Assembly (NCBI RefSeq): GCF_000981445.1
Contig: NC_027217.1
Coordinates: 124,001 to 188,000 of the forward strand
Direction: 5' to 3'
Origin: Babesia bigemina
Lineage: Eukaryota
DNA length: 64,000 bases
Positions 7,703-34,683 of this stretch are shown in pieces. The position numbers were made by a program, and so were the translations under genes. Positions within the stretch are counted from its first letter, which is position 1; every line of letters starts with the position of its first letter. The notes beneath the pieces are model-generated. The model saw only the letters and a list, made by a program, of their open reading frames with translations. It had not been told where the DNA came from and did not search any database.

Positions 7703-9673
7703 CACGGCAGCTACAAGGAGGAGCAGCGTCGACCAAAAGATCCCCAGCTTGTACGTCGGATTGGCCCTGCGACGGCATGGTGCCACGACATAAAGTGAAC
7801 CTACTGTAATTGTAGAACGCAGCTGTCTCCAGCGTGCACGAATATATCGGCCACTTCAACCAGGCGCGTAAGCGGGTCTGTGAAACGTTGAACGAAAGCC
7901 GGGCCACGTGGCGCCCATGCAACAACCACCTACCACGCATGGTGTACCACCGCCACTTCTCATCGTTGCTGGCGACCACTAGTCGCGCGTAGAACAACGA
8001 GGTGGTCTCCACCTCCTCGGACGTGGGGTCGTCACCGACAACCATTAAATTGGAAAACTGCGACGTGAAGAGACGCCGTGCCCCGGCACTGCAGTCCTGC
8101 AGCTGCCGTCGTGCAATTATCGCGCACAGCTGCAGCAGCTGGCAGCACAACCGATAGCGGTCCATATCGGTCAGCGCTTTGCCAGCCAATGCCTTGGTGT
8201 CATTGAATTCGGGCACCAGCGATTCCCGGGAAATCGACTTCTGCGTGACCGCGTGCTGCAGACGGATCAGAGCCTCCGACTCATTTTGCTCCTGGGAGTA
8301 GGGGAAAATGAAGTCGTCCCGCATTATACGGTACATACTGGTGAACCACCCGTGCCCGCTGCTGACCGCGGTGCCCACCGACTCCACGCGCTCAACGCCC
8401 TTCGCACGCACCGTGAACGGCGTGTGGTCATCCGCTGCGGCGGTGCCCAACTCCGTATTGACAATCTTCGCAAGCGCGCCGTATTGAGTATTTTGGCCAT
8501 CATCGCATAGCACGAGCAGCATGCCTCCTCGGCTCTGCGGGGATTATGCGGCGCAACGCACGTTGCACCCACCATTGAAAACTGCAGCAACTGGGTCACG
8601 TCCGACGTTCTCATTACGAAGGAAGTTTCTTCTCCGCGGAACATCTGCATTAAACTGTTTGTGCGAAGTAAGATGGCTTACCGGCGGGTTCCGCCGGTTG
8701 CAATATAGCACGGGCAGGTACCCCTCGCCGTCGAAGCGCTGCTCGCCGCAACGACGACGGAAGCGCGCCTCCTCCGCCTGCGCAGTGGCGAGGTTCTCGG
8801 CCTCACGCTCGCGCACTTCGTTGACGAACAGTTCAGTGATCGCCTGCATAAGCAGCGTGTTGGGAGCGTACTCCATGCACAGCGCCGCACGGCAAATTGG
8901 GCATTTCGAACTGTACGCTGTGACCTACAGAACCATGAGCACGGGTTTATACTGCAGTTGAGTGGAATGTACGCCTATTGCGATAGCAAATTATTACAGC
9001 CGTTTGCTAACCTGGTCCACGCAGGCCTTGCAGAAGTTGTGGCCACATACTGTCGTCACCGGCCGGAAGAGCAGCTTAAAACAGATCTGTAACGAATTGA
9101 GGTCATATTTTAATGGCTTAGTAGATAATAACTAGATGCAATATGCAGGAAAGTGTAGCGACAATGCGTGGAATTGGTGCGTATGTAACAGCGGGGCAAA
9201 GGCTGCAATGTAGGTGATCGGACGCAACTTGTAGACTTGACTGTTGTCTAAACAACCACACCCAACACGGTTTCCAAGCCTTCATACAACATAATAAACG
9301 CTCTGGCAAGTAGTACTTTGGCGCCGTAATCTAACACTCATCAGGCGTAGCGTTACGGAGGCCATCCGGTGATGCATTCATCGGCGGTCAAACCGTCGCT
9401 ACAAAACTGCACTGCACAATAGAGGCTGGACAGCACACTGACACCAATCTCAAACGAATGGTTACACCCGTTACACAACAAGATTCTATGCAGCGTGTCC
9501 ACATATCGAACAATATTGCATCGACTTCCACCGGCAGCAAGGAATCCGCGTCCCGGATCTCTGGGAAGAGCACGGCACCAGAGCACACACTTGGCGCAAA
9601 GGACACACATTGCTACTAAATGAACGATGTGTGGGCTTCTTACCGGACATTCGAAGTCCTTCAGGAGACTCAT
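7692..9673 (-). CDS. C3HC4 RING finger protein with probable LON N-terminal-like domain (LONRF-like), multi-exon; may extend further 5'
   Basis: Exons give DFECP|ICFKLLFRPVTTVCGHNFCKACVDQ|...KCPICRAAL. A 27-nt GT-AG intron (8535-8561) joins ORF 8544..8876 in frame to ORF 7692..8522 (FNGGCN|SRGGMLLVL). The LON-like assignment is by motif resemblance only. Confidence 0.7.
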
Positions 9674-10402
9674 CTTTAACAGATTCCCATCGACGCGTTG
9701 TCTGAGGGAGCGACGTCAGGACGCGCCTCGGAGGCGTTGACTTCGACGAAACACAACTAAGTTTTGCTGTAACGTCCAGTGACATTATTTGAGTGACGGC
9801 GATCGCTACCGTTCTGCAAAGCGCCCCGCCCCCGGCATCCCAACGCCGTGGCCCATCCGACACTTAACCAGTAGACAGAAAGTCTTCAACATCAGGGACA
9901 GCCACAAGAACGTTGCTTTTATTATGTAAGTTTCCATCTGAGTTTGTTTTGGGGGCGTTTTAGACGTGGTTGCGCCGCAACAGCTGAGTCTGATGGCCAC
10001 GGCGTAAGTGGCACGATGCGCTTCCAAATAGCCAGCTGCATTACCTCGATTTTCGTAACCCATTTTTGTGGTTTTGTGGAGGCTGGTTTGGGCGCGTGTA
10101 ACCGACAGGCGTTCTCTGTCTACAGGGACCATGCTGACTTGTGGGCGCTTGCAACATTCGAAACGAAATTAGCGTTGTTGCGGTGCACTGTATGACGGCG
10201 TTAGGTAGCGTGTGTGCAAGGTCATGTCAAATTCATGCGATTGTGCCGGTGTCTAACGCAGACGCGGTGTCGCCTGTGACCAGCTAATGCGCCTTTTGAC
10301 ATTAGTGATATCTATCGATATGGCCTTTCTGCACAACGTGTAAATGAGCTTTGTATATAGTCGAGGGTGTAATTGAACGCAGATTGTTAGCAAGCTCTCA
10401 AG

Positions 10403-12043
10403 ATGGCTGACGGCGGCATTAACCACGCCCCCAAGTCGACCTTCACCTTCAATGTCAATGCCGCGGAATTCACGCCCAGCGGATCCTGGTACAACTACGA
10501 CCAGCAGGAGGAGAAGGAAAAGGAGCAGGAGATGGAGAAGGAGGTGACGGAAAAGTTGGAGACTCTCAACGTCAACGAAGGGGAGCCAGCCCCCGAGGAA
10601 ACGGAAGCCGTAATCGCAGAAGTGGCGGAGGAGAAGCCAGCACCACCAACGGAAGCGAAGGAGTTGTCGACGAAGAAGAAGGGAGGTCCGACCGACTCGG
10701 GAGTACCCCCGCCAGACCCGAGGCAGCACCTCAACATCGTCTTCATCGGACACATCGACGCCGGCAAGTCGACCACCTGTGGTAACATCCTCTACCTCAC
10801 CGGATACGTGGACGAGCGCACCATCGAAAAGTATGAGCGCGAGGCCAAGGACAGGAACCGTGAGAGCTGGTTCCTTGCCTTCATTATGGACACCAACGAG
10901 GAGGAGCGCCAGAAAGGAAAAACCGTGGAAGTGGGGCAGGCCCGTATCGAAACCGCCAACAAAAGGTTCACGATTCTGGATGCACCCGGCCACAAGAACT
11001 ACGTGCCAAACATGATCTCGGGCGCCACACAGGCGGACTGCGGTGTCCTCATCCTGTCCGCCCGTAAGGGTGAGTTCGAAACCGGGTTCGACCGTGGAGG
11101 GCAGACACGCGAGCACACGTTGCTGGCCAAGACTCTCGGAGTGAGCCACCTCATTGTGGCCGTCAACAAGATGGACGACCACACCTGCGACTGGTCCGAG
11201 GCCAGGTACAACGAAGTGGTCCAGAAGCTTCGTCCTTTCCTCAAAACCTGCGGGTTTGTCGAGGGCCGTAACCTCAACTTCCTGCCGATATCGGGTCTCG
11301 TCGGCCAGAACCTCATGCACCACGTCTCAGACCCCTCGTACAAAGGGTACTGCCCCAAGGCCTCCTGGTACCCACAGACCATGCCGACCCTGTTCCAGCT
11401 CCTCGACGGCATAGACACGGCAGTTTTCGACGACAAGGCCGCGCTCCGTATCCCCGTCACCGGCGCCTACAGGGACAACGGTGTCATTTGCATGGGCAAG
11501 GTGGAGTCCGGTACCGTCACCTCAGGTCAAACGTGCATTGTCATGCCCCATAAGGTCAAGGTTAAGGTGCAAAACGTGCTGTTCGACGAAGAAGAGTTCG
11601 CCTACGCCAAGCCGGGTGAAAACATCAGGCTGCGCATCGTCGGACTTGACGAGGACCAGATCAGCAAGGGCGCCATCGTCTGTGACGTCGACAGGCCGTG
11701 CCCCGTGGTCACCGAGTTCATTGCCATGGTGCAAATCATCGACCTCCTCGAGCACAGGCCGCTCATCACCTCGGGGTACTTCTGCGTCATGCACGCGCAT
11801 AGTGTCGTCGTGGAGATGCAGTTCCACAAGCTGCTCGAGACCACCGACAAGGTGACCAAGAAGAAGAAGCTCAACCCCACCTTCGTGAAGAACAACACCC
11901 TCGTCACCGCCCACCTCAAGGTCTCGTCGCCCATCTGCCTCGAAGTCTTCGACACGTGCCAACAGCTGGGCAGGTTCACCGTGCGCGACGAGGACAAGAC
12001 TATCGCCGTGGGCAAGGTGCTCAAACTCCTCAACACGGAATGA
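10403..12043 (+). CDS. eRF3: Eukaryotic peptide chain release factor 3 (translational GTPase)
   Basis: GHIDAGKST, DAPGH and NKMD motifs; RESWFLAFIMDTNEEER..GKTVEVG; GRFTVRDEDKTIAVGKV; N-terminal PAM2-like motif FNVNAAEFTP. Confidence 0.95.
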   Translation: MADGGINHAPKSTFTFNVNAAEFTPSGSWYNYDQQEEKEKEQEMEKEVTEKLETLNVNEGEPAPEETEAVIAEVAEEKPAPPTEAKELSTKKKGGPTDSGVPPPDPRQHLNIVFIGHIDAGKSTTCGNILYLTGYVDERTIEKYEREAKDRNRESWFLAFIMDTNEEERQKGKTVEVGQARIETANKRFTILDAPGHKNYVPNMISGATQADCGVLILSARKGEFETGFDRGGQTREHTLLAKTLGVSHLIVAVNKMDDHTCDWSEARYNEVVQKLRPFLKTCGFVEGRNLNFLPISGLVGQNLMHHVSDPSYKGYCPKASWYPQTMPTLFQLLDGIDTAVFDDKAALRIPVTGAYRDNGVICMGKVESGTVTSGQTCIVMPHKVKVKVQNVLFDEEEFAYAKPGENIRLRIVGLDEDQISKGAIVCDVDRPCPVVTEFIAMVQIIDLLEHRPLITSGYFCVMHAHSVVVEMQFHKLLETTDKVTKKKKLNPTFVKNNTLVTAHLKVSSPICLEVFDTCQQLGRFTVRDEDKTIAVGKVLKLLNTE

Positions 12044-12161
12044 GCGAAAACCAAACGTGATAACTCACTGATAGAGTAACTACATTATGCGGCATCAGCG
12101 CCGTGAGGTTGCGATACTGGGTCACAAGGCGCGCTTTGGCATACGCACGGGCGGAGCGCGC

Positions 12162-12599
12162 TCAGTTGTCCCACAGGTGGCCCTTGATCTGGAACTTGCG
12201 CGCCTTCTGCAGGCGGATGTTGTTCAGCTTGATGAGGTGGCGGTTGTGCAGCCGCCGGAAACGGTTGTAGTCGCGCATCTGCGCGTCCTCGATGCCCTTC
12301 CCGTACACGAACATCTGCAGCAGCTCGCCGTACGTCTTGTCCGGCTTGTCCAGCTGCCACAGCCACGATGGGTACGCCTCGTCCGGCAGCATCACGTGGT
12401 CCTCCGGAATACCGGCGTAAATGTTGAACAGGTGCTCGTCGCCTGCGCTGTCTGTCGACGCGGCGGTCACGCGCTGCGTGTCTGCGGCGCCCTTCTTCCC
12501 CTTCTGCTTAGGCGCGTAGCGGACACACCCAGTGTGAACCTGCCGCTGCAGCACCGGCATTGGGCACGCCAGGCCCGCAATGCGGCGTAATAAGGACAT
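12162..12599 (-). CDS. Mitochondrial large-subunit ribosomal protein mL54 (L37 family)
   Basis: Basic N-terminal presequence (MSLLRRIAG); NIYAG..DH.MLPDEAYPSWLWQL and RFRRLHNRHLIKLNN match the mL54 pattern. First ATG at 12599 (the ORF track starts at GTG 12602). Confidence 0.8.
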   Translation of the reverse strand: MSLLRRIAGLACPMPVLQRQVHTGCVRYAPKQKGKKGAADTQRVTAASTDSAGDEHLFNIYAGIPEDHVMLPDEAYPSWLWQLDKPDKTYGELLQMFVYGKGIEDAQMRDYNRFRRLHNRHLIKLNNIRLQKARKFQIKGHLWDN

Positions 12600-15371
12600 C
12601 ACGAGACCAGGCAGAGATGCTCCTGCAGCGCCGACGCCTTCGCCTCGTCACCGTGCAATTGCCGCCACCACCGGTACGGGATGTGTAGCAGACGGAAGCC
12701 CATGCCCGCGATCAGCTCGTGGCGCCTATGGCACAGTTAACGATAATGCACACATTGGCTTGAAAAATGAGCAAGCGGTATCAGACACCCGTGAAAATCC
12801 ACTAAGCACAATACGGCATAGGAATCCAGACAGGGCACGCGGCGCTTGCCGGGCACTACGGATTTGCCAAAAACAATGCTTTATGGTGGGCACATGCGCC
12901 TTATACATGAAGCTAGAACTTACCTGCGAGCCATAGCAGTGAGGTGTGTAGTGCCGTGGTAGTATTGGTGCTCGGTATTTATCTCGATGACGGTGTTAGA
13001 CTTAGGCTCGTAAACGTCCAGAATGAAAGGTCCTGGGTGACATATGATACGGACACACTCCAAAGCACATACCAGCCTTCATGTAGTTGCGATGAGGCAC
13101 GCCGATGAGCGTAAGCACCCTGCTCACGTCCTCGTGGTACGGGCAGTGGAAGGTCTTTGTGGTAGTACCGGAGTCATCAGCAGCTGAGTCGCGCAAGCCG
13201 GGCACATCTTGATCCGAATGGTCGTCTTCTCCTTCATCTGCTATGGCTGCATTGGGCTCATCAGCCGCGATAGGTGCCAACGTGGCATCGGCCAGCTTCT
13301 TGGCCAACGTCTGCTGCCGAACGTCGATGAGAAACTGTTTAGTGGCGTCATCCATACGGGCATATACTTCCGCTTTGAACAGACGAATGTACAACTCGAT
13401 AACCTCCAGGTGGCGCGTGTAGTGGCGGAAGTGTTGCCGGTGGTACTCGCATTTCTCCAGGAATGACAGAATCATGTCATCGCCGAACATTTCGAGTACA
13501 GTTATGGCCTTCATACGTGTGCAGTCGGTTGCTGAAGGTGTGTGATGTATAATAGAGGGCAAGCATACCTGAAAAATGCTCGATGCGCTTCGCCATTACA
13601 TCACGCAGAGGCTGCAGCAGCAACGAGTCGCAAACCCCAAGCTTCGCGAGCGAATTGGCAGCCTGAATAGTCGTGTAATATGTATAAATGTGCAGAAGTG
13701 TACGTCATCTCGTGAGTAGTGGCATATTCACTGTGCCACAGAACCTAAAGTAGCCACCGCACTCAGGTCTTATCCGCAGCGATGTAATTGGGTCAGACAT
13801 GAGGGTACGGATGGTCACACAATAACAATACCTATAGCGGGCACAGTAACTTGTTTCACGTCGACTAAAAGAGCGTAACGTACCTTTACCAAGAAATTGT
13901 TACGCAGCACGGGCCAGCACAGCACCATCTCGTATAGGTCGTCGTACAGCCGCTGATCACGCAGCCGCAGCCTGCCCAATGCCTACTCGTAATTAATGCT
14001 GATTCATATATAAGCAGCAGTGCACTAGCGTAGATGGAGCAAAGCATACCTGGAACAGAAAGACGTAATGCTTGGGTTTCATCTCTGCTCGGCGCCGATG
14101 GATGTGGTCGACCAAGGCACGCACGTGATCCGTCGGGGTGAGTTGGACCTTCGAGACGATTTGGAGAAAGCGCAGCAAGGACCGGATGCAGACGTTAGCG
14201 GCAATGGTGTTAACCCGCGTCAAAAATGCCTCCCACACCTTATCATCGATGTTGCATGTGGCAATGGATTTGCGGGCTTCATTCATCATGACAAAACGCA
14301 GATCCAGTGAATTCAATGCGGCCACCTCGTCCGGGGTTGGGGACACATAGTTAGGTTTCATCCTGTAGACATATATGTCGCACTATGATAATCGTGATGA
14401 CATACCAGTATGCCTTGGGCGCGATCCGAGTCTTCGGAGAGTCGCGTAGCGCTTCCTGCTGCTCTTTGAGCAACTGCGCTTCCAGGTTCCGAAGTTTGCT
14501 GCCCATGCCGTCGAATTTTCTCTCACGGTCACGAAAGAATGAGCTGTAGAATTCCTCCTCGGTCATGTCGTAAATGGACTGCGCAACGATAAAGCATACT
14601 TTCCGAATGCGCCGTTTGGACAAAGGCGTTACACAAAGCATTCAGGTAACGAAGGGTTTACGATGGACTTTGCCTAACATATTAAATAGCCATACATAGC
14701 GGAAGTCTTTAAAACGGAAAAGTAGGTTTGACTTACCTTATTCAAAAAATGGAACTGTTCTACCCGCGGCCTGCGCTCAATGTCGATGTCGTCCACGCTG
14801 AATTCTTTGATGTGCGACTCCGCAACTGGTTCGCGTGGATTCCAGGTTACTTTGCCGTGTTCGGCCAGCATTTGACGCTTTATCATTTTTTTTGCCCGCT
14901 TCTTTCCGTATTTCGCCTCCAGGTCGGCGGGCTTCATGGTAGCCTTCACATGCTTTCGCACCTGACAACGGGTTAATCACGCATAAATAGACGTGGTTGA
15001 CATACCTCGTGTGGTTTTAATTGGTCGTATTCCTCTTTAGTGACAAAACGTGTTCGCTTGGCTTCCAAAAATTCCTTCTGACTCAACACCCGGCCGCTGA
15101 CGTCAGCGTTGTCGTCCGTTATATCCACCACCGACTGAGTACGCGTTACCTTACCGACATCGTCCGTGCTTTGGAGCTGGATGTACCTGTCATCACTCGG
15201 GGATGGCGGAGCAGGCTGCGACGTCTTGAAGGCAGAAGTGGTAAGCCGTCGATGAGTTGCCGAGGTGCCAACGGTCCTGGCGGGAAACGATACACCTGTA
15301 CATTTCCACGTACGGCATGCTTCTGCGAGCAGAAGCGGTATCTGTCTTTCCAGGAAAAACGTGAACGCCAT
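12599..15371 (-). CDS. RAP-domain RNA-binding protein, multi-exon
   Basis: Spliced C-terminus PFILDVYEPKSNTVIEINTEHQYYHGTTHLTAMAR|RHELIAGMGFRLLHIPYRWW is a RAP domain. Last intron 12726-12923; last exon 12599-12725 ends ..CLVS-TGA. Upstream ORFs from 13002 to 15392 are helical coding exons. Start ATG 15371 is probable. Confidence 0.8.
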
Positions 15372-15816: not shown

Positions 15817-18800
15817 TCACCAAGCCGTGTCGTAGTCGGAGTCGTAATTGGCTTCTGACTTAACTTCGGCTTCATTGGCTACGTTGGTCAATCCCAGCCT
15901 TTCTAGCAGAATCTTCTCGAAAAAGTTATACATTTCCATGGACACGATGCCGTTACCCATCTTGAAGTCGTTAGGTGAACCAGACGAGCCCTGCTGTCGA
16001 CCAAACAGATCCAGCAGGGCGCCTATGTCCTCAAACAGGCCCTCGCGTTCAACAAGCTGCTCCTGGCCGCTGTAAGCCCCCACCTTGTATCCATGCAACC
16101 CAAACTCGCCGATCCATATCGCGGATACGGCGTCGAAGATGGACACATGATCCCTGAACATTAGCCGAGCGTGCGCCTGCGACAGACGGAGCAGACTCTC
16201 CACAGTACGGATCGTAGGACCGCCGTGCGAGCCGCTGTCCAAAGCCTGCTGGCGCGACACCACATAGTAGGCGTGGATGACCCTTCTAGCGGCCACCGTC
16301 AGGGTGGGGAACAGGTGGGCCCGAATGTACTCAATGTATTCCTTCATCGCACCGTTCGCATTCCAATTGAAAGGCCGCTCTCCGTCGGTTTCTTCCAACT
16401 TCACGTCTTTGCGAAGGTTGCGCTGAGACCCGGCTCGCGGCTGTGTTCCATCGGTGGCCATGTCGGCCTCATCGGTCTCCTCTTCCGATATATCTTCCTC
16501 ATCAAAATCGTCGACCATTTCACAGTCATAGTCACCGCACGTCGATGAGTCGCCTGGGACGCTCGCGGTACCCTTCAAACTACGAAGCGCCCTCGACTTA
16601 GCATCGCGGATCGGGGCCTCACAAGTGTCCAACAAGAAGTCAACCAATTCAGAGTCGTTCAATGGATTTTCAGTGAACACCATTACCAAATCAAACCTGG
16701 ATAACAAAGGAATGGGTACATCTACGGAGAGCAGCGGATGACTAGAATGCGTCCCACCCTGTGAGTCATCTCTGTTCACATACCTCCGAATCATCTGCAT
16801 TTTAAAGTTTGACGCAGCGATGACACTGCACCGACAGTTGAGGGAACACTTTATGCCAACTTTGGCCACCGATATCACCTGCTGTTCCATGGCCTCGTGC
16901 AGGCACGCCTTGTCGTCAGGGTGGATGAGCGAAAACTCGTCGACGCAGCACAGTCCACCATCAGCGAGCACCAGTGCACCAGCGGCAAGCATGGTATGGC
17001 CGCAGTCGCGCACCACAGTGCAAGTGAGACCGGCTGATGTACAGTGCGTGCCAGAGACGGAAACGTGGCGGTCCACAAGGCTCTTCGCAAATCTCAAGAA
17101 CTGCGACTTTCCGGTACCAGGGTGACCCAAGAACAGGATGTGACACTGCGTGCGATTTAGCCGCGTTGCTTTAGAATCGTAGGTGGGGGAAAGGCCCGGA
17201 GATGTCCTTTGAGGAGATGTATCCCCAAAGGAACGGTCTCCGGAAAACTTGGCCCAGCGATTAACATGCGTTTCCTCTTCAAATGGTGTTGTATGGACGG
17301 GGAACCCTCCTGAATAACGATGAAGGTCGGGTGGTAATGTTTGCACGTACCTATCACGGTAAGCAAGAGGCCCAACTTTGCGTTATCCACGCCCGCCATG
17401 GTGGTGCAAATCGACTTGAGCAGGATGTTCCTGCCCGCAACTTCGTCTTTACGATACTTCGCCCAGAATGGTGAATATATGCTGTCCTCAATCGTTGTAA
17501 TAGGGTTCAGTGGCGGAGGCTTGTGCAAATTGATCACGTCTAGGTTGAGGGCATCCACAAATATCTGGGACACACACCTGAATGAATTTTAGATTGCCGT
17601 ATATGACGTGTAGACAATTGTTAAAACATCAAGCAGCTGGAAGGACGCAAAGTGCAAACGTGAAGAAACAAAATGTTTACAAATCGAGTATTGAAATGCG
17701 TTATACCTTAATTATTCGTTTGATGCATATCCGCAAACAACGTATGATAACAGTGGCACATAGTGGGTTATTACACGGACGCTTGCTAACAATTCGGATG
17801 CACAACTTACTTCCTTCCGCTGCGGAGGGTTCTCCAGCGACGTTTAACCATGCCTATCAGGTGGATGGTGTCGCCGGGCACGCATGTTCCAGTGATATCG
17901 CGCCGTAATACCACCGGTATGGCGACACCAATGGAGTTTATCCGTGAATCCTCTGATATAGATTGGCATCGTATCTCCTGCAGGTCAGCTCGCTTTACGG
18001 CAACGCCCTGGACAAAAGTGTCCCCGAAACACCTCGGCCGGAACGCTCCTTTCGTTGTTTCCAAATAGTGCGGGCATTTGGATGGAGCTACAATGAAATA
18101 GTGAAGCTCAGGAACCGCTCGAGCCAAGACGCTTTGGTGGCAACGTACGCACCTGTACTCCCGTTCCTCATCGAGGACGGAAATGATGCCCACCCTGGTC
18201 ACAGTACATACCAATGTCACCAGGCCTCCCACATCCTCTTCCCTTATATGGTCTACCCTGTTCTTCCACACGGACGCGATTGGCGGGATGTTACGCAACC
18301 GAGTTGTGAACTGGAGATTCTTCGAAATACGTTTTGTCTCGGGTAATTCGAGAGTGTTCTTGCAGTGCAAGTCATTCAACGTGCGATCTAAATACTTCGA
18401 GACGGATTGTGAATCCTTGCACAAGGACTCGATATCGTATTTTTCATGGAAGGTTTCCACAATGGCAACTGGGTCGGGGTGGCAGCCCTCCTCAATCAGC
18501 TTCTCTAACAATTCGTAAAGCAGCGGCAGAATGCGCAAGTCCAACAAACGCAATAGCACGTCAGGCGCAGTCATCAGGTCCGAACCCAATGCAGGAGCAT
18601 CAACGATAAGCTTCATCACATCGATGAAAACGCTGCGATAGTGCTTGGATATCGTGTAGCGCGAGTTATCGGCAGACCCACCTACCGACGCACGCGAGTT
18701 TGTACCCTGCGAATAGCCAGCTGGTGGGGGGATCCTTTTAGGCGTACAAGTTTCAGAATTCTGATCTGCACGACCGTCGGTAGTGGCTTCATACACGGGT

Positions 18801-19393
18801 TCCGTCTTGATGATGTCATTGGTCGCAAAATTACCGGCACATTCAGAGTCCCGATACGCTGCGACCTCAGGGGTAGAACCATTTACTGTTCCACCGGGTG
18901 GATTCCCGCATAGATATGAAGTGCGGGGAGTGGTGGCATTGGGGTCACACCGAGACGGTGACCCAGATGACAAGAATTGGGAAGATTTAATATCCTTCCC
19001 ATCGTTATAAAAGCTTGCTGATGACTGTAAGTCGTAGTGATGAGTAGTCACTGCGTAGTCGGTGCAAGGTGCTAATTTTTTTAACAACGAAGGATCCTCA
19101 TATTTATTGACGCATAGCATATCGAGATACTGCGACAGCAAATCGTCATCGCTCACGATATATTGGATGAATCCATTCACGTAATAAGAAACCGGAGAGG
19201 CCACTATGTCGCATATACGCCCCCCCTTTTTCGACGCTGTGTCTTCCCTGTATCCAAGCGGTGGTAGGAACAGCCCCGGAAAATATAGCTGCTCGACCAC
19301 CGCATCAACAGCGGATTGCTGCCGACCGGAAGCATCACGTCGATATGTATTCTGCTTCGGAAAAGATTCGCGTGGCGCGGTGATTTTGCTCAT
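15817..19393 (-). CDS. MCM9: MCM-family helicase, MCM9-like, 3 exons
   Basis: Zn finger YRCVRC..KCP; Walker A GHPGTGKSQ; AGALVLADGGLCCVDEF; HEAMEQQ; Arg finger LLSRFDL; TIRTVESLLRLSQAHARLMFR. Introns at ~17578-17810 and ~17310-17350. MCM9 versus MCM8 is judged from motif recall. Confidence 0.75.
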
Positions 19394-21782
19394 CACACCA
19401 ATGCGTGATCTCTTCCCTAAAACAACAGAATTTTAGTTATTTAACCGAAGCTCCTGGTAATACGTGTATCCGATAAGTATATGTAGCGAGTTTCACAAAT
19501 ATCGATAGGGTGATAGCGGCAACAATTACAACATGAAAATGCCGCGTCAAACGACTACATAGAGTTAATCAAAACTGCAGAACAAACTTCACATGCTAAT
19601 TGAATAGGACGCACATCGTAATCAGTTATATGTGTCACATTGCTGAATTGCCGTAGCCCGTTTACACGCCAGCACAGCCGCAGCCTAGCCACGCTCCCCC
19701 AACGAAATCAGTGTGTAACCTCTAAATGACTGCGCATAAAAATTTGCATCCAAAATTCTTTTGCTTGTGTGTGTGACATGAAGCAAATGATCATTTGGCG
19801 ATTGGTTGAAATAATTCGTACGCCTACGTGTTTTGTTCAATCAGCGAAAAGTTACACCGGTGTGTGTCGCATCGGCATGTGTAATGGTGAAATAGACAGA
19901 TGTACATATTACTAATTCCAGATGTGCCAAAGAATACACAGAGATTCGGAAGTTTTGTCTTATAAAAACGCAATCCATGAATATTGTGTGTTCACGCTAT
20001 GTACAACGTTATACCTTCTTGCATAGGAAGGTGTGATATGTTTTTACCATCTATATCAGCTGATTTTTATTGCTTAATAATTTGTTTTATGGAATTTAGA
20101 GGTATTCAGCGGCACACTCAGACACTTGTTGCCGCATTCCAGTGGTGTGTTCGCTGCACGAAAGGTTACAGTGTGATTGTTTAGGTGATGAATTGTAATT
20201 TAGATTACCTTGCTATGTCGCTTCTATTTTCGCATATTGGTGAATTTCAATTGCGTCGTTGGGTGCATTATACACCATGTAATTAAGTGGACGCGACGAC
20301 ATAATTGTGCCTGATGTGTGTTTTGCATGAGGCAACTCATTCCACGTGAAATCATATAATGCGGCCATACGTAATGTACGCTGCTATCTGAATTCATATC
20401 TCGTGATGCGACTCCCTCAAATTGAATCTGTTGTGAGGATGGAACTGTGGAATCCAGTCTGTCTACATGCATCATGTTTTATGTGACTATAGAACGACTA
20501 GACCGCGTCGAGAAATTTTAATATATCTTATATTGCAGATAATACCCGAATCACTACGTTAAGTCGTCTGCAATGTCTTAAGACGCTCTTAAATATCCAA
20601 AAAGGATTAGGACGAGATATACTGTTGATTTGTAACGGGTTTAGGAAACGGTAGAAGACCAATTTTCAGTACGCCTACGCTATTAATGCAACAACCGAGT
20701 CTGCCATCCGCTTTGATGTTGCGTGGCGGACACTCCCGATGCGTACAAGCTGCCTAATCACAGGATTCTACTACATTGACCTAAAATAGTAGTTGCGATA
20801 TCAGACTGCCACGTGGTTTAGGTGGAACTATTGTGTTTTTACGATGTTTTGCGATAGTAAAGATGATATGTGTCCCGGAGGCTCCTGGTGTAGTCAAGAA
20901 CTTTGTCGAAAGGCCATATTTCATAGCTGATCATGACACCTATAACGTTAATGGCAATCACAATTAGAAGGAAACCAAATACAACTAGGTAAGGCGCATA
21001 TTCATTTGCATTCATCTTTCACCACAGCTCTCAGAACAAAAAAAACCTGAACAATAATTAGCAACGTGCCCGGATGCCCGAGTGGCGGCTAGCGATAACA
21101 TTCCTCACCGCTTCTAATGTTATGCTGCGATATTATCCTTTAATTACTTTTGGTAAACGAATATATGTGCAGCCTACGCTTCAGATTGCGATAAAATGCT
21201 GTGAGTGCGCTGTGTAGTGGGCAAAAGGGATCGACTACGCATTCTGCCCATAGCAACGAGCTACGGGTTTAATTGTTTTTTATATTACGATATATATTTA
21301 TATGTTTCATGGAACGGTAAACTGTGGTCGCGCTTAGCTTTGCTGGCCTACATATATACGCACGTCTGCGTGCTCCACCGTGAGGGACTAAACAATAGTG
21401 GATCCGACACTAAATAAGGAATTTCCGAATAAGTTGGCGTTGTTCTCATATTTATCTCCATTAGTACTACGCTGTACGGATGTGGTAAAGTCGAGAAAGT
21501 TCGCAGAATCTATCATGTACACACGCCTCCAGGCGTTTGCTACCTACACATCAGCGCACTTGCATCCGGTACATTTGCCAAACAGATACACAAGCGTATC
21601 TCATGGAGTGACGCGTGTGAGACGCTAACATGGGTATTTATTTTTCATGCTTGACAGATCAGTGGCAAGATTATAGGATGCGAACATAACTAACAGATAG
21701 CCCACTACAATGCTAGTTAACACATTGTGCTACGTTATCTTGTTGTTGTAGCAAGGTGTGCTACGCTGTTTCTAACATTTGA

Positions 21783-24700
21783 TCATGGCATCTGCAACGT
21801 CGTGAACACTCCAGCGTCGCCAGCAGGCCGTAGCAGGCAGCGAGTGGGCGACGAATTTGTGAAATGATTGCAACCACATATGTGAAGCGTATTGATGAGC
21901 CCGAGGAATACGCATACGAAGTAGCGTAGCGGTGCGTAACACAATGACACGAGAGTGAAGATGAATGGCTCCCGGATGCCGTAGAGGAAAGCGTCCATGG
22001 CGGTCATGAGTGATGCGATAGGCTTGCCGTTGACGATTTCTTCCAGCTTAGAGATGATCTGTTGACATGTGAATGGCGGCTGTAATCCCACCTCCGGTGG
22101 CGTGAACCCGTGAGTGTAGAGGAGGGGCGGCGCAGTGGAACACAGGTGGAGGGATGAACACTTGATACTAACGTGCTTCTTGAGATCATAGTGCAGCTTT
22201 TGAAGTGACTCCCACAGCCTGTCCGGCAGGTACACCGCCCAGCTGAGGTAGGTGTGGGCGAAGCTCTGGGAGTACAGGGCGTAGGCCCGGTAGGTGATGG
22301 GCGAGCAACGTGGATGACAAGTGGCAGAGTCACTACCGCAGCCAACCAGAGTGGACAGGGTACGGGGATGCTCGTTGTCGTGGTTGGAGTTGGACTTGAG
22401 AGACTCGGAGCCCCGGATGCCACTGACAGCTTGGAGGTCCGAGTTCTTGAGATGGTCCCAGTCAGGGCAGTGGTCATGTGGAGTGGAAAGTGAATTGCCG
22501 AGTGAAGACAAGGACTCTGAAGCATACCCGTACAGCTCATTCCCGAAATTATGGAAGAAGGACACAAGCTCCCCGGTGGTGCGCGGCGTCCGCCTGGTGA
22601 TGCAGTTGAGGTAGGAGCACAGTGTCAGCAAGGGGTCCTCACCGCCGCAGCTGGGAGTGAGGATGGAGGAAAGGGTGATGCCATTTTCCGATTCCTCAGG
22701 TAAATCATCCTTCCTGAATCCCATCCTGACGCGGCTCTTGAGGCAGGGGTTGCACGGGTCGAAGGGGTGAGTCTCGAAGTCGGAGTCCCAGTTGTCGGTC
22801 AGGAACGCCTGGAGGGGGGACTTGGAAGCAGTGATGTCACTGCCGTACTTACAATCTTGCCACCCACCATGGATTTTTCCTCGTGAACACTGCGCCTTCA
22901 GGAATTGCAACTGGTAGTGGCAGGCGTAGGCGTAGTCACGCAGCTGGCAGAGGAGGGCGCAGCAATCAGGCTCCTCGGATGACTTAGGCTTCACGGTTTT
23001 CAATGACACACTTGCTTTCCAGTTGGGTGCAATGGCGGCGAGGACTGAACGGGCAAACATGGCAGTAAGTTGGAGTATGTCGAATACATCTGTGGGCCTG
23101 ATGTTGGCGTGGTTGACGGAAAGTGCAAGCTGTGAAGCGTCACTATGCGGGGCAGTAAATGCCTTCTCAATACATTTCTCCAGAGTGTCATGATGTTTTC
23201 TGTTTTGAAGCCCCGCCAGCCACTGAAGCATGTCCCGGACTGTGCGCGGTGCCTGCGATGGGAACAGCTCCGTCTCGGGGATGTAGGGGGAGCTAGGGGT
23301 GATTTTATGGGTTATCCAGGCGGGAGCGCAGGTGTCTTTAAATTCGACTGTATTAATTTTGGGATTCTCGCTCGGAGGTAGATACTGCTCTGGGCCTGGA
23401 GGAGGTATATTGAATGAGATTGCAGGAAATGATGGATCTACGAGGTCAGGCGGTGTGTCATTTCTAATATGGGTTGAGTCATCGTCAAAATCCAAATCGA
23501 AGTCGAGGTGGTTGTCTGGCAATGTATGTTTGGCGACTTCGATGAAGAACTCGGGGTCATCGAATTTGGGTGGAGGGCGGTCTGGGACGTCGATATATAA
23601 TCCCCTTGTTGGTTGTGGCTCAGCGAGAAACATAGCCGTAGGAATAGAAATACTATGTGGATTTGGATTGCGAATGGGTGCTCCAGTGGCCATCGAAAAT
23701 GTGGGTTTATTCGCATAATTTGGCATTTTAGGGAGACTAGAAATACTCTTGGAAATAATCGGTTGACCACTTAAGGATTCGGCGGCCGCTCGTTGTTTTT
23801 GGTATTCTACATCTTTGAAATGCTTTATTGCATCAAGAGTCCTTTGTACCTCTTGTATGTGCTCCTGCTGTAATCGTTTGGTTTTTATACTTTGATCTTG
23901 AGAGTATTTCTCCCACTGCTGTTGCATATCCCGTTGTAACTCGACCGTCTTGTCGTACTCCGCTAATTGTACATTTCGCTGATGTTCCTGTTCTCCTGTA
24001 TTTTGAGATTCATCTTTAATCTCTCCACCATCCAGACCTTCCGACATGTGAACTGCAAAATCCATATCAATAATCCTACGTATGTCATTCGTTTGCGATT
24101 CTACAACTGCTTGCGGAACACCATCAATTGACGCCAAATTGGGTTCGATCCTTTCATTATTTTCAAGTAAAAATGTATTAAGCCGATCACGGCCCTGCGC
24201 ATGTTGTAAATGAAATGAATTTTCATAGGCTTTGTGTTCTACTGCCCTGCGCTCTTCTTCTTTCTGCATTTCTCTATAGGATTCATCCGGCACAGCTTCG
24301 CCATCCGGGATGAAATCACGCAAATCTGCAACTGGAGTGCCGCTAAGCAGCGGTGCATAGTCACTCTGTAACTGCTGCAGTTGACGTTGACGTTCCTCAT
24401 AGGCCTCCTGGTTCTTACGTTCCGCTTCTTCATTCATTTTGTTTTGTTCTTCCGCCCATCCTAACAAGTTTTCCATTTTTGTCTCTTTTGCCTTCCTTTT
24501 CTCCTGCTGCCGTTTTCCATAATTATACAACTGCTCTAAACGTTCGACATCTTTCTGTTGCCGTTTCCATTTTTTGTTGGCCTCTCCTAGTTTGACAACC
24601 TCTTTTTGCCATGCGTCGTGTTGTTTATCTGAAAATTTCATTTCCTCCGTTCGCCTTTTCAATTTTAAACGTTGTTTATCGGATTTCGCCCTTTTTTGTT

Positions 24701-27530
24701 TTTCCTCTTCTAGCTGCTTAGAAGACGTGTCCGGGATGGCAAATGCAATGAAATCGGAAGGCAACATATTTGTAGCACTACTAACCTCATGTCTTGGTCG
24801 CCACTCTCCTAATTCATAGTAACCACGTCCATTACTATTACGGCCACCGGTAGGCTGAGGGGTAAGTCCGGGATCAGGACGGCTGGGCTGACTTGGAAGG
24901 GTGGAGGGAGTAGATGTTGGGGGATATGCACTAATGGTTTGATGCTCTGATATCTTTTGCTGCCGCAAACGTTTTTGTTGTAATCTGTTTTGGGCGTCTG
25001 GATCGTCTATACTGTTTATTATATGTTCAACGTTTCTCTGCAGTTGAGTTTTCCAGATTTCTTGTGTTGTTTGTTCGTACTTTTTGTCGAGGTTCTGGGC
25101 TGCCTCCATTTTCTTATCATTCTGTTTTCGGATACGTTCAATGATTTCTTGCGTTCTTGCCTCCGACTTATATTTGTTTTCTGCCTCCGTTTCGTACCTT
25201 TTAATAACTTCACCTTGCTTCTGCATTTCCGCCCGCACTTCATCTCGACGTTTATAGTATTTTCCCCATTGATCCTCCGCATCTTGACGTCTTTGCTCCT
25301 CGTCCAGTTGACGTTTGAGACCTGAATGGTCTAATTTCTCACTACCGTCAAGACGAATTTTGTCGGCATTGTTATGCGTAAGTTGTGGATCGAAATATGT
25401 TTCGTCCATAGCTACGCCATCTGCGTATATATCACTCTGAATACCGTCTTCCCCCTGTCCGACATTTCTTCGAAAGTCAATGGACTGACGCTCATTATCA
25501 TAACGGAGACCTGTACTCTGAGGGTAAGGACTTGGATCGGGTCGACTGAGCTGAGGAAAATGCTTCAACCGATGAGCACGAGATTGCCGTTGTAATTGTT
25601 GCTCTTGTAGAGCCTTATATTCGTTTTCCAGCATTCCTTGCCTTTGGGCATCCCAAATGTTTTCATCTGTAATGTCGGACATAGAGAAACATATATTACC
25701 TCCACCAAGATACGACGATGATATCTTACCGTTAGAACACTGTGGAACTGGAGACGTGGTCTTCTCCGCCTGGGGTCCTTGTCGATTCTCCGTCCCATCC
25801 CCTCCTAAACCTCCACCGCCGTGTCTATCAGCAGTTGAGTCCGACATACTAGGCGCCCTGTTAGTAGCGGTAGAATCCGCCTGAGACAGTGGATCACTAG
25901 ACCCTTGCGAACCTTGATCACCTTTACTCCCCGGCGGGCCTAAATCTTCTTTAGCAGTGGAAGTATGAGCTTCAGATGTTTTTCCGACTTCCTTACTTGG
26001 CGCTGTTCCTTCACTCTGACCATTTTGATTTTGCCCTCCCTCCGCTTTCTTGCCCTGGTTCTGTGCTCCCTCCGCTTTCTTGCCCTGGTTCTGTGCTCCC
26101 TCCGCTTTCTTGCCCTGGTTCTGCGCTCCCTCAGATTTCTTGCCCTGCGTTGCAGAAAGCATCCGAGTCTCAGCTTTAGCATCCTCGGCTTTGGTGACCA
26201 CAGGCTTCGCGGCCTCAATTCTAGTAATCTCGTTTGTAGGTTCAGAAGAATTCTCATCTTCAGATTCGGAATCAAGATCATCCTCAGACTCGGATGAAGA
26301 CTCAAGCTCAGGCTCCGGTTCAGGCTCAGGTTCAGGTTCAGACTGAGTCCCAGGCTTAAGCTTAGACTCAGGCTTCTTATCCTTTTTTCTATTTAAACAC
26401 TCATTTCCATCCAAAATTGTTTTCAACTTCTCCAAACCATCATTATGTCTCATAAGCTCACGGATTGCAGCGTCCCAATCACCTCTCAAAGACGGATAAG
26501 GATTCCCCTTGTTTTTGAAATCGTTGTCATAAAATGTGAATCCGTAGGGGAAAAGAGATGTAGTGGCAAACTTATTGACGTCCGGCTGGGAAACTATTCT
26601 GCTCAATTTCGATCTCACATCATGTAAATGTTTTTTTAGCCACTTAGCCATCTTCCTATCGATGTTGTTTTTGTTAAGATATGTATATTCCCTCCCATAG
26701 CCTGTGAATGAGAAGGCTCCTTCCTTGTAAATTTTGCCAAGGGATTTTTTTAGCGTAGCGCAATGTCCTTTTAAATCTGGCCAATCTATACATTTACCCC
26801 TAGATTCCAAATCCATTCTAAATGCATTTTCGTTTTCTGTGTCTTCGAATATTTTACAAAAATCTTCCACCAGGCGAAGAGCGTTAGCAACGTTGGGAAT
26901 ATCGCTGCCGTGATCGCCAAACACGGAAGTGACGAAAACATCGAGGAAAACGTTGAAGCCACGACCGTGTTTTTCACAAATACTTTTAAGGTCATCTGAC
27001 ATAAGGAACCCCTGGGCATATTCACCACCACGTTTCACCTCTGACGTATCGAAACCGCCAGGAATGACACCGTATTTATTTTCGTTTGATGTATCATGAA
27101 GATACGCATCCAGCTCCCCGCCTCTAACTTTAAACCATTGGAACCACCCAGGATACAAGTTTGCCCATTTACCCCCTCCCACTGCACTGAACTTATCGTC
27201 TACTTGATACCGCAAAAAGTACATAACGGCAAGGAATTTAGGGATGCAAGCAAGAAGAGATTTGAGAACTCTCGTAGCACTGTTATGACCATTATAATAA
27301 CTACGTGGAAATGTGCACAACTTCTTGTGAAAGTTAGACACGTGGCCGACAAATCGCGACAGTGCGGATTCAATGTCACTCTGTTTCGCATCTTTATATC
27401 GGCTTTTTAGGAGGCGTACCAGTCGACTGGCGACCTGACCTTGCATTCCCCCATCATTTTTCAACCACTCCAGAAACTGAAGACACTCCTTAAGAGTGCG
27501 GAACTCAGGGATATTACCTTTAGCCGCCAT
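21783..27530 (-). CDS. Large ves-like variant surface antigen (family often auto-annotated 'ribosome-binding protein 1-like' in Babesia), copy A, C-terminally truncated
   Basis: N-terminus TLKECLQFLEWL; low-complexity centre; conserved Cys/His C-terminal domain (APRTVRDMLQWL, CQLRDY, SPLQAFLTD, RTPRTTGELVSFF, YLSWAVYLP). First ATG 27530. Similarity to copy B stops mid-TM at ~21942. Confidence 0.8.
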   Translation of the reverse strand: MAAKGNIPEFRTLKECLQFLEWLKNDGGMQGQVASRLVRLLKSRYKDAKQSDIESALSRFVGHVSNFHKKLCTFPRSYYNGHNSATRVLKSLLACIPKFLAVMYFLRYQVDDKFSAVGGGKWANLYPGWFQWFKVRGGELDAYLHDTSNENKYGVIPGGFDTSEVKRGGEYAQGFLMSDDLKSICEKHGRGFNVFLDVFVTSVFGDHGSDIPNVANALRLVEDFCKIFEDTENENAFRMDLESRGKCIDWPDLKGHCATLKKSLGKIYKEGAFSFTGYGREYTYLNKNNIDRKMAKWLKKHLHDVRSKLSRIVSQPDVNKFATTSLFPYGFTFYDNDFKNKGNPYPSLRGDWDAAIRELMRHNDGLEKLKTILDGNECLNRKKDKKPESKLKPGTQSEPEPEPEPEPELESSSESEDDLDSESEDENSSEPTNEITRIEAAKPVVTKAEDAKAETRMLSATQGKKSEGAQNQGKKAEGAQNQGKKAEGAQNQGKKAEGGQNQNGQSEGTAPSKEVGKTSEAHTSTAKEDLGPPGSKGDQGSQGSSDPLSQADSTATNRAPSMSDSTADRHGGGGLGGDGTENRQGPQAEKTTSPVPQCSNGKISSSYLGGGNICFSMSDITDENIWDAQRQGMLENEYKALQEQQLQRQSRAHRLKHFPQLSRPDPSPYPQSTGLRYDNERQSIDFRRNVGQGEDGIQSDIYADGVAMDETYFDPQLTHNNADKIRLDGSEKLDHSGLKRQLDEEQRRQDAEDQWGKYYKRRDEVRAEMQKQGEVIKRYETEAENKYKSEARTQEIIERIRKQNDKKMEAAQNLDKKYEQTTQEIWKTQLQRNVEHIINSIDDPDAQNRLQQKRLRQQKISEHQTISAYPPTSTPSTLPSQPSRPDPGLTPQPTGGRNSNGRGYYELGEWRPRHEVSSATNMLPSDFIAFAIPDTSSKQLEEEKQKRAKSDKQRLKLKRRTEEMKFSDKQHDAWQKEVVKLGEANKKWKRQQKDVERLEQLYNYGKRQQEKRKAKETKMENLLGWAEEQNKMNEEAERKNQEAYEERQRQLQQLQSDYAPLLSGTPVADLRDFIPDGEAVPDESYREMQKEEERRAVEHKAYENSFHLQHAQGRDRLNTFLLENNERIEPNLASIDGVPQAVVESQTNDIRRIIDMDFAVHMSEGLDGGEIKDESQNTGEQEHQRNVQLAEYDKTVELQRDMQQQWEKYSQDQSIKTKRLQQEHIQEVQRTLDAIKHFKDVEYQKQRAAAESLSGQPIISKSISSLPKMPNYANKPTFSMATGAPIRNPNPHSISIPTAMFLAEPQPTRGLYIDVPDRPPPKFDDPEFFIEVAKHTLPDNHLDFDLDFDDDSTHIRNDTPPDLVDPSFPAISFNIPPPGPEQYLPPSENPKINTVEFKDTCAPAWITHKITPSSPYIPETELFPSQAPRTVRDMLQWLAGLQNRKHHDTLEKCIEKAFTAPHSDASQLALSVNHANIRPTDVFDILQLTAMFARSVLAAIAPNWKASVSLKTVKPKSSEEPDCCALLCQLRDYAYACHYQLQFLKAQCSRGKIHGGWQDCKYGSDITASKSPLQAFLTDNWDSDFETHPFDPCNPCLKSRVRMGFRKDDLPEESENGITLSSILTPSCGGEDPLLTLCSYLNCITRRTPRTTGELVSFFHNFGNELYGYASESLSSLGNSLSTPHDHCPDWDHLKNSDLQAVSGIRGSESLKSNSNHDNEHPRTLSTLVGCGSDSATCHPRCSPITYRAYALYSQSFAHTYLSWAVYLPDRLWESLQKLHYDLKKHVSIKCSSLHLCSTAPPLLYTHGFTPPEVGLQPPFTCQQIISKLEEIVNGKPIASLMTAMDAFLYGIREPFIFTLVSLCYAPLRYFVCVFLGLINTLHICGCNHFTNSSPTRCLLRPAGDAGVFTTLQMP
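22132..22955. repeat. 824-bp tract identical to 29873-30696 (direct, offset 7741)
   Basis: Line-by-line comparison showed no mismatch that I could see. The identical 79-aa and 97-aa antisense ORFs in both copies agree with this. Confidence 0.9.
26031..26150 (-). repeat. 30-bp tandem repeat (~4 units) encoding (T/N)QGKK(S/A)EG(A/G)Q
   Basis: The + strand shows tccgctttcttgccctggttctgtgctccc repeated. Confidence 0.95.
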
Positions 27531-27590
27531 ACTGCCTACTTCCAATCACCCACTAATCAACTCTCACAAAATTCCACGACTAGCCTCCAG

Positions 27591-27637
27591 AACTATGTGG
27601 ACTGGGAACCATTAGAATGATCATACCTCTAAGGTGA
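27591..27637 (-). promoter_or_regulatory. Conserved 47-bp element 61-107 nt upstream of the copy A ATG
   Basis: 37/47 ungapped identity with 34684-34730, at the same distance from the ATG. Function is inferred. Confidence 0.5.
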
Positions 27638-28322
27638 CACTGCTTAATACAGCATGGCAGACAACTAAGGGCGCTGGGTGAAAGGGCTATGAAGTGAACC
27701 GCAGAGTGGCAACACTACGCATCATGCTGAGACAATGACACACCTAAACCATCATCTTAAATCCATGAACCATCACACGAATCCTATAGACATACCACTC
27801 ACCTGAGGAGGGAAGGCGACAAGGCAAGGCAGCCACGCTGGAGTGAGAGGGTGGAGCATGATTGGAGAGGGGCGTTGTCAACAACGATTGTGGATGTTGA
27901 TGGAGCAGTACAGACAGACATTTGGTTAAACGTTAGGTGAGGCGGTAGGCATTTGCTGTTAGATGGGCTGCTCTGTGTCGTCGGGGTAGAGGTGAACACC
28001 AAGGTAGTGAGTAGAGGTATGATCAAGGTAACAAATGACATAAAGGCGATAATGAGATCAGATGTGGAGACACGCTATTTTTTGCAAGCAAATGCGGAGC
28101 GTGCCCAGACGTCCGAAGATGACGTCTAACCCGTCAAGCTGGTTAGTCCCGTTAACTTTGCCAATGCCCATTGTATGCTGTCTCGACAAATCTCGCAAAG
28201 GTCTCGATGGGCACCTACAATGTACGATTATGAAAGATTTAATAATCATGCATTAGACGTACAATCTACTATCGGTCCACAATACAATGAGCTATGTGCG
28301 ATAATTGAAATTTTGAAGTTGA

Positions 28323-28811: not shown

Positions 28812-28867
28812 CGGCCTTACGCTAGCAACCAGGTGATCGCCATCGAAAGCACCGCCGGTTAAATCGC

Positions 28868-29415: not shown

Positions 29416-29481
29416 TACAACTAGCCACTAGTGCAACACAAAATATCACAATGGAAAATGACTTCATTAATGAGGTGATGA

Positions 29482-34623: not shown

Positions 34624-34683
34624 TCTGTCCCCAACGACTTGTACACTAATACGCTACTTACAAATAGCCGCGGCCACTTCCCC

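What the first reader, a model, noticed from the sequence alone, without database searches (positions are those of the whole stretch)
12590..12730. RAP RNA-binding gene stop overlaps the mitoribosomal mL54 start (TGATG): a functionally coherent pair
Seen: the RAP last exon (12725-12599) ends CLVS-TGA at 12601-12599, and ATG 12599 begins MSLLRRIAG. Established: apicomplexan RAP proteins largely act on mitochondrial rRNA fragments, and mL54 is a mitoribosome protein. Inference: an operon-like unit for mitoribosome biogenesis.
Basis: partly seen in the sequence, partly recalled or inferred. Interest (0 to 1): 0.7.

Follow-up and report, generated by a model that had tools for sequence, protein, structure and literature searches.

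The report
Conserved overlapping mitoribosome gene pair
In this tick-borne Babesia parasite the stop codon of an RNA-binding gene shares one letter with the start codon of a mitochondrial ribosome gene, a one-letter overlap also found in Babesia bovis; the second gene likely has its own promoter inside the first, while the first gene's message likely runs through both.

Summary
Observation confirmed. On the minus strand TGA 12601-12599 of a nine-exon, 654-aa RAP gene (identical to a named Babesia bigemina protein) shares its A with the ATG of mL54. Published coordinates show the same 1-nt overlap in B. bovis, a 7-nt gap in Theileria annulata and T. parva, and the same order and strand, 642-919 nt apart, in five Plasmodium species. 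It was the tightest of 39 B. bovis and 22 T. annulata tandem pairs sampled. 'Operon' is only partly supported. The RAP mRNA has no room for a 3' end before mL54, so it likely contains both ORFs. But mL54 likely has its own promoter in RAP intron 8: piroplasm promoter motifs lie there, and one thin contig runs unspliced into it. Leaky scanning is unlikely (39 upstream AUGs), and no splice gives a fusion here. The RAP is the likely orthologue of essential, predicted-mitochondrial PfRAP15 and is not one of the solved mitoribosomal RAPs. Best reading: nested promoter with 3'-coterminal transcripts, locked by compaction (0.6). Termination-reinitiation at TGATG is open (about 0.2) and directly testable.

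The parts
12599..15371 (-). RAP gene, 9 exons (15371-15006, 14961-14737, 14578-14406, 14362-14050, 13982-13884, 13662-13569, 13531-13073, 13032-12924, 12725-12599), 654 aa: disordered N-terminus, helical-repeat body, C-terminal RAP domain
   Evidence: (identical to named B. bigemina protein); intron 4 (14049-13983) is the only one of 8 introns seen spliced in a contig
12726..12923 (-). RAP intron 8 (198 nt), likely also the mL54 promoter and start of its 5' UTR
   Evidence: GT..AG; initiator TYAYWWW at 12770 and AATGTGT at 12756; one 151-nt contig covers 12638-12788 unspliced
12750..12756 (-). AATGTGT, the first 7 letters of the published Theileria promoter motif AATGTGTAA, 157 nt before the mL54 ATG
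   Evidence: 6 copies in 64 kb, another 198 nt before the RAP ATG
12599..12725 (-). RAP exon 9, likely doubling as mL54 5' UTR; its AUG at 12703 would open a 34-codon upstream ORF ending at TGATG on any mRNA that starts in intron 8
   Evidence: GC at third positions 34/39 against 375/589 in exons 1-8 and 121/137 in mL54
12597..12601 (-). TGATG: RAP stop overlapping the mL54 start by one base
   Evidence: no difference listed there in a 95-99% alike contig that spans it; same 1-nt overlap in B. bovis
12162..12599 (-). mL54 (mitochondrial ribosomal protein L37 family), single exon, 145 aa with a basic N-terminus
12044..12161 (.). 118-nt gap to the convergent eRF3-like gene; likely shared 3' end region of the mL54 and RAP mRNAs
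   Evidence: poly(A) site not mapped
10403..12043 (+). eRF3-like GTPase gene (PAM2 plus EF-Tu domains), convergent neighbour
   Evidence: the name eRF3 is my reading of the domain set

Best explanation
The RAP stop and the mL54 start overlap by one base; mL54 is likely made mainly from its own mRNA started inside RAP intron 8 or exon 9, while the spliced RAP mRNA likely runs through the whole mL54 ORF to the same poly(A) site. Shown: the overlap, both identities, and the conserved order from Babesia to Plasmodium. Inferred step 1: an old tandem pair, still 642-919 nt apart in Plasmodium, was squeezed in piroplasms once the mL54 promoter lay inside RAP. RAP lost its C-terminal tail down to the domain edge and the spacer shrank to 7 nt (Theileria) or -1 nt (Babesia), where the shared A locks it. 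Inferred step 2: any poly(A) site inside the mL54 ORF would also cut mL54's own mRNA, so the two mRNAs are likely 3'-coterminal and the long one is bicistronic in structure. Inferred step 3: the RAP protein is a likely mitochondrial RNA-binding processing or assembly factor rather than a stable ribosomal subunit.
For: Promoter in intron 8: 1 of the 6 AATGTGT copies in 64 kb lies there and another before the RAP ATG; of the 11 regions scanned, only intron 8 and the RAP upstream gap hold both that motif and an initiator (motifs from PMC4761415 section 6 and PMC4148916 passages). A start there gives a 5' UTR near the B. bovis median of 152 nt. In run X1 a contig crosses the intron-8 acceptor unspliced by 63 nt, while another contig is spliced at intron 4. 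Exon 9 has mL54-like GC3 (Fisher p 0.003). 39 AUGs precede the mL54 AUG on the spliced long mRNA, with no depletion (20 out of frame against 14.0 +/- 3.1 expected). Same-strand overlapping loci are common in T. parva (29% of loci overlap a neighbour); Cryptosporidium dicistrons coexist with internal monocistrons. Compaction: 8 of 8 unfused Babesia rows end 34 aa after the Met of the RAP-domain MG[FY] motif, against 47-100 aa in the 7 of 8 Plasmodium rows where the motif was found.
Against: No start site or poly(A) site was mapped. The RNA evidence is one read-length contig at depth 2.65 from a run only guessed to be RNA, and pre-mRNA or intron retention would look the same; it also reaches 20 nt beyond the initiator candidate. 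Six motif patterns were tried, the G-box (ATGGGG/CCCCAT) is absent, and the initiator also occurs in intron 4. The GC3 step may be a regional GC gradient. Pure compaction does not by itself explain why this pair is the tightest sampled in both genera. The frame relation differs between Babesia (-1) and Theileria (+7), which fits this reading but does not exclude reinitiation.
Confidence: 0.6

Rival explanations
1. True operon-like unit: mL54 is translated mainly from the long RAP-mL54 mRNA by ribosomes that terminate at the RAP stop and restart at the overlapping AUG.
For: The -1 overlap is kept between B. bigemina and B. bovis and the gap is 7 nt in two Theileria species; it is the tightest of 39 and of 22 sampled tandem pairs; both products are predicted mitochondrial; coupled reinitiation on cellular mRNAs is reported in human cells (PMC3923131, abstract only).
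Against: Promoter motifs and an unspliced contig in intron 8. No TGGGA in exon 9 (the calicivirus motif is recalled, not from a call) and no unusual folding at the junction (z 0.48, 1.08, -0.90, -0.62). Genes 642-919 nt apart in Plasmodium, where mL54 has more reads than RAP15 (base means 6093 and 3665 over spans of 663 and 2139 nt). Reinitiation after a 654-codon ORF is usually inefficient in eukaryotes (recalled).
Confidence: 0.15
2. Two ordinary monocistronic genes: RAP polyadenylates about 100 nt into the mL54 ORF at a site used only by the long transcript, and the overlap is a passive end point of compaction.
For: B. bovis median 3' UTR is 116 nt; 125 of 805 same-strand T. parva pairs keep their order in P. 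falciparum anyway; the RING and eRF3-like neighbours also seem to be retained near the pair in P. falciparum (orthology not tested); m6A-guided polyadenylation separates tandem genes in T. gondii (PMC8313237 passages); 130 CDS overlaps occur in T. parva.
Against: The same site would lie inside every mL54 mRNA; the mL54 ORF is 60-66% GC with no AATAAA-like hexamer (weak, since the piroplasm signal is not established).
Confidence: 0.2
3. Alternative splicing joins the RAP body to mL54 in one fusion protein that lacks the end of the RAP domain.
For: 2 of the 9 piroplasm proteins (B. ovis P0019, Babesia sp. Xinjiang P0021) are annotated as exactly such fusions, joined at the intron-8 donor.
Against: In the window 0 of 20 AG sites after that donor (12900-12482) give an open RAP-mL54 frame; the two models use different acceptors; B. 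bovis, T. equi, T. annulata and T. parva have two separate models. Likely gene-prediction merges.
Confidence: 0.04

Closest known systems
Cryptosporidium parvum polycistronic transcripts with internal monocistrons (PMC11761812; passages and section 8)
   Same: Compact apicomplexan genome; two ORFs in different frames likely on one poly(A) mRNA beside a short downstream mRNA.
   Different: There the cistrons are separated by an internal UTR and do not appear to share function; here the ORFs touch, both are predicted mitochondrial, the order is old, and the long mRNA is not yet shown.
Overlapping same-strand loci of Theileria parva (PMC7126163, PMC4761415; passages and named sections)
   Same: Same lineage; neighbours whose UTRs lie in each other's coding sequence.
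   Different: Those are mostly UTR overlaps with undefined bounds; a conserved stop/start overlap for this pair was not found in print.
Green algal bicistronic genes read by leaky scanning (PMC11291117, abstract)
   Same: Nuclear two-ORF arrangement.
   Different: They show AUG depletion before ORF 2; here 39 AUGs and no depletion.
Termination-reinitiation at stop/start overlaps (prokaryotic -1/-4 pairs, PMC10666635 search listing; human mRNAs, PMC3923131 abstract; caliciviruses, recalled)
   Same: Same -1 TGATG geometry.
   Different: Coupling untested; no TGGGA motif or stable structure before the junction.
PfRAP15 (PF3D7_1123600) and the T. gondii mitoribosomal RAPs mL160/RAP13 and mL155/RAP5
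   Same: PfRAP15 is the likely orthologue (its 90% cluster holds a 712-aa protein with RAP at 637-693) and lies next to mL54 PF3D7_1123700. The model's best fold matches are the mitoribosomal RAP chains (E 1e-12).
   Different: Only 14-17% identity to those chains; the coccidian orthologue has no close chain in the PDB, so it is a paralogue of the structural RAPs.

Membership tests
RAP-domain (FASTK-like) helical-repeat proteins | C-terminal Pfam RAP domain above cut-off | tested here: met
   47.1 bits against 24.2, aa 592-648
RAP-domain (FASTK-like) helical-repeat proteins | Helical-repeat body before the RAP domain | tested here: met
   All-helical aa 273-508 at block pLDDT mostly above 90; fold matches to T. 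gondii RAP chains and FASTKD4
RAP-domain (FASTK-like) helical-repeat proteins | Mitochondrial location and RNA binding | not testable with these tools
   Only a basic N-terminus and a MitoProt score of 0.998 for the likely Plasmodium orthologue
Structural RAP subunits of the apicomplexan mitoribosome | Orthologue present among the solved T. gondii mitoribosome chains | tested here: not met
   Besnoitia orthologue matches only over the RAP domain, E 3e-6; family profile best E 1e-19 to a paralogue; PF3D7_1123600 not found in 11 searched supplements of PMC11652630
mL54 (PF08561) | Pfam match and homology to solved mL54 | tested here: met
   44.5 bits against 21; E 1e-32 to 9i05_AF
Eukaryotic bicistronic mRNA | One capped, polyadenylated mRNA holding both whole ORFs | tested here: inconclusive
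   A contig spans the junction (12138-12660) but none joins spliced RAP exons to mL54, and contigs cannot show single molecules
Eukaryotic bicistronic mRNA | ORF 2 translated from that mRNA | not testable with these tools
   Needs ribosome profiling or reporters
Leaky-scanning bicistrons (green algal type) | AUG depletion before ORF 2 | tested here: not met
   39 AUGs; 20 out of frame against 14.0 +/- 3.1 expected
Termination-reinitiation units | Stop within a few bases of the next AUG, conserved | tested here: met
   -1 in B. bigemina and B. bovis, +7 in T. annulata and T. parva; not in Plasmodium
Termination-reinitiation units | Ribosome-tethering element before the stop (calicivirus-type TGGGA, recalled) | tested here: not met
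   No TGGGA or GGGA in exon 9; folding z-scores near zero
Termination-reinitiation units | ORF 2 output depends on ORF 1 termination | not testable with these tools
   Reporter experiment needed

The most novel reading that the evidence does not exclude
Piroplasms use the conserved stop/start contact for real translational coupling: ribosomes that finish at TGATG, coming either from the full RAP ORF on the long mRNA or from the 34-codon RAP-frame upstream ORF on the short mRNA, restart on mL54. This would be a nuclear termination-reinitiation unit tying a mitochondrial RNA factor to a mitoribosomal protein, evolved from an ordinary tandem pair still seen in Plasmodium.
Probability: 0.2. Interest if true: 0.75.

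Novelty: new member of a known kind. Interest (0 to 1): 0.45.

Why it matters
It is a small, genetically reachable locus at which to ask whether piroplasms make and translate bicistronic mRNAs, so far reported among apicomplexans for Cryptosporidium (PMC11761812 calls itself the first report). It gives a graded series in one gene pair (about 800 nt, 7 nt, -1 nt) for how compaction pushes a promoter into the upstream gene. It is a concrete case of the unexplained retention of organelle-targeted neighbours between Plasmodium and piroplasms (PMC3176833, section 21), and it points to the uncharacterised, essential RAP15 group as a candidate mitoribosome factor. Practical points: two public gene models are probably false fusions, and tagging or deleting the RAP 3' end would disturb mL54.

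Tried and rejected
No whole genome was held, so gap statistics come from published coordinates, 1 of 400 parts of one supplement, not from this genome. No RNA holder on record was listed; the two runs laid are guessed RNA, contigs only, one study; lack of cover over most RAP exons is not used as evidence. A first exon model with an extra exon and a wrong start had stops and was dropped. The metagenome scan gave 2 distant mL54-like loci (31-35% identity), not examined. In-frame fusion by splicing: rejected for this window. Leaky scanning: rejected. Special RNA structure at the junction: none in 4 folds. T. orientalis, B. divergens, B. duncani, B. gibsoni, B. ovata and B. caballi adjacency could not be fixed from accession numbers. 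No complex prediction was run, as binding is not claimed. Literature searches found no paper on this pair; three look-ups in earlier scan findings returned nothing.

Full report
What is there. On the minus strand the letters at 12601-12597 are TGATG. The TGA closes an exon (12725-12599) that carries the C-terminal part of a Pfam RAP domain; the ATG opens a 145-aa ORF with PF08561, mL54, 62-75% identical to all 9 relatives found and close to the T. gondii mL54 chain. A nine-exon model from ATG 15371, with 8 of 8 GT..AG introns, gives 654 aa, identical to a protein that NCBI names as Babesia bigemina. The last exon is not in doubt as coding sequence: the RAP domain spans aa 592-648 across the exon 8/9 junction, and the 3 listed differences in that exon in a related strain are all synonymous in the RAP frame. 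Splicing of intron 8 was not seen directly.

Conservation. A supplement of PMC3176833 (searched rows and part 8 of 400) gives coordinates that include the stop codon (mL54 426 nt = 142 codons). B. bovis RAP ends at 162387 and mL54 starts at 162387: the same 1-nt overlap. T. annulata and T. parva have 7 nt between the genes. T. equi has consecutive locus tags. In P. falciparum mL54 is PF3D7_1123700 and the likely orthologue of the RAP is PF3D7_1123600; the pair keeps order and strand in 5 of 5 Plasmodium species listed, with gaps of 642-919 nt, against tandem medians of 1385-1592 nt for three of them. None of 23 listed T. gondii RAPs neighbours its mL54 by id, and the Chromera ids are far apart. 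The order is therefore shared by piroplasms and Plasmodium, and the contact is piroplasm-specific. In step with this, 8 of 8 unfused Babesia rows (6 species) end at one alignment column, 34 aa after the Met of the RAP-domain motif, while Plasmodium orthologues carry longer tails; three Theileria proteins end one residue earlier (counted).

Is it more than chance? In the 144 rows read, the pair is the smallest of 39 B. bovis tandem gaps (next 29, median 157) and of 22 T. annulata gaps (next 68, median 207). The sample was picked for holding the pair. An exponential fitted to genome-wide medians puts gaps of 10 nt or less at 2-3%. Against over-reading: 29% of T. parva loci overlap a neighbour, 130 in coding sequence (PMC7126163 passages), and 125 of 805 same-strand T. 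parva pairs keep their order in P. falciparum (PMC4761415 section 9), although only about 2% of genes lie in blocks of three or more (PMC3176833 passages). A RING gene and an EF-1-alpha-like gene lie near the pair in both the window and P. falciparum, so the pair may sit in a wider old block; their orthology was not tested.

How it most likely works. With no spacer, the mL54 promoter must lie in RAP or be RAP's own, and the RAP 3' UTR must lie in mL54. For a promoter in intron 8: it holds an exact TYAYWWW initiator at 12770 and AATGTGT at 12756. The latter occurs 6 times in 64 kb, once there and once 198 nt before the RAP ATG, and matches the motif described near Theileria start sites (PMC4761415 section 6). 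The implied 5' UTR of about 170 nt is near the B. bovis median of 152 (PMC4148916 passages). In run X1 one contig covers 12138-12660 with no difference listed at TGATG, a second runs unspliced from 12638 to 12788, 63 nt into the intron, and a third is spliced at intron 4. Exon 9 has GC3 34/39, like mL54 (121/137) and unlike exons 1-8 (375/589; p 0.003). Each clue is weak: the contig is one read long at depth 2.65 from a run only guessed to be RNA, six motif patterns were tried, the G-box is missing, and GC falls regionally across the locus. For the 3' end the argument is geometric: a poly(A) site in the mL54 ORF would also truncate mL54 mRNA, so both mRNAs likely end in or beyond the 118-nt gap before the convergent gene. 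This resembles C. parvum dicistrons with an internal downstream monocistron (PMC11761812 passages, section 8). m6A-guided polyadenylation (PMC8313237 passages) could in principle give the long transcript its own site, which is the monocistronic rival.

Could the long mRNA yield mL54? Hardly by leaky scanning: 39 AUGs precede it, with no depletion, unlike green algal bicistrons (PMC11291117 abstract). Not by a spliced fusion: 0 of 20 acceptors open the mL54 frame, so the fused models of B. ovis and Babesia sp. Xinjiang are likely prediction merges; they do show the same order and strand in two more species. The Xinjiang joint reads R-L-M, which is what an acceptor four bases before an ATG overlapped by a TRA stop would give (inference). 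Termination-reinitiation stays open: the geometry fits, but there is no TGGGA and no unusual fold. One twist: any mRNA starting in intron 8 carries the AUG at 12703, in a strong context, which opens a 34-codon ORF ending exactly at TGATG. Unless the start site lies downstream of 12703, mL54 has to be reached by skipping that AUG or by restarting at the overlap, so the overlap could matter on the short mRNA too.

Functional coherence. The model (mean pLDDT 77) is a helical repeat plus RAP domain whose best fold matches are T. gondii mitoribosomal RAPs at 14-17% identity. The Besnoitia orthologue has no close chain in the PDB, so this group is not among the solved structural RAPs, of which five are reported (PMC11742926 passages). 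PfRAP15 scores 0.998 in MitoProt and is listed as essential (supplement tables of PMC8917122 and PMC8190603); no study of it was found. Two other P. falciparum RAPs are mitochondrial and tied to mitoribosome regulation (PMC8917122 title, listing and passages), and the prediction for the family is 15 mitochondrial and 3 apicoplast of 24 (PMC8190603 passage). A shared compartment is likely; a shared pathway is inferred.

Verdict. Real, conserved and not found in print by my searches, but most likely a nested-promoter, 3'-coterminal arrangement of a kind known from compact apicomplexan genomes (0.6). An operon with reinitiation as the main source of mL54 is 0.15, separate monocistrons 0.2, fusion 0.04. 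Supplements I could not see (B. bovis start-site tables) may settle the main question.

Noticed in passing
window 42094-44499 (-): An 802-codon open frame with a reverse transcriptase domain (PF00078, E 6e-31) beside large surface-antigen-like ORFs. Apicomplexans are generally described as lacking transposable elements (PMC3176833 abstract passage), so a retroelement-like gene here deserves its own look.
   Followed up: no
window 21786-41620: Three very long ORFs (1920, 1723, 1398 codons) without Pfam match that look like ves/VESA-type variant antigen genes (label recalled); two share an identical 60-aa opening in an overlapping minus-strand frame at 22007-22624 and 29796-30365.
   Followed up: no
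window 15817-19432 (-): MCM-family helicase gene (MCM OB, P-loop and lid domains) ends 445 nt before the RAP ATG on the same strand.
   Followed up: no
public gene models P0019, P0021, P0022, P0041: Likely annotation errors at this locus: RAP-mL54 fusions in B. ovis and Babesia sp. Xinjiang, a T. equi RAP lacking part of its RAP domain at the same intron, and a P. falciparum isolate model of 1408 aa that joins RAP to further sequence and is labelled SMC5.
   Followed up: partly
proteins P0036 and P0003: A full 653-aa RAP of the B. divergens cluster and an mL54 of the B. divergens cluster both list a longest Logan contig of 4987 nt; if it is one spliced contig it would cover both ORFs, but that could not be checked and would not show one transcript.
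   Followed up: partly
window 57818-58579 (+): Part of a DHFR-thymidylate synthase gene.
   Followed up: no
window 8994-12043: RING gene and eRF3-like gene, divergent; genes of similar description are PF3D7_1123300 and PF3D7_1123400, near the RAP-mL54 pair in P. falciparum but on its other side, as if the pair had inverted as a unit.
   Followed up: partly
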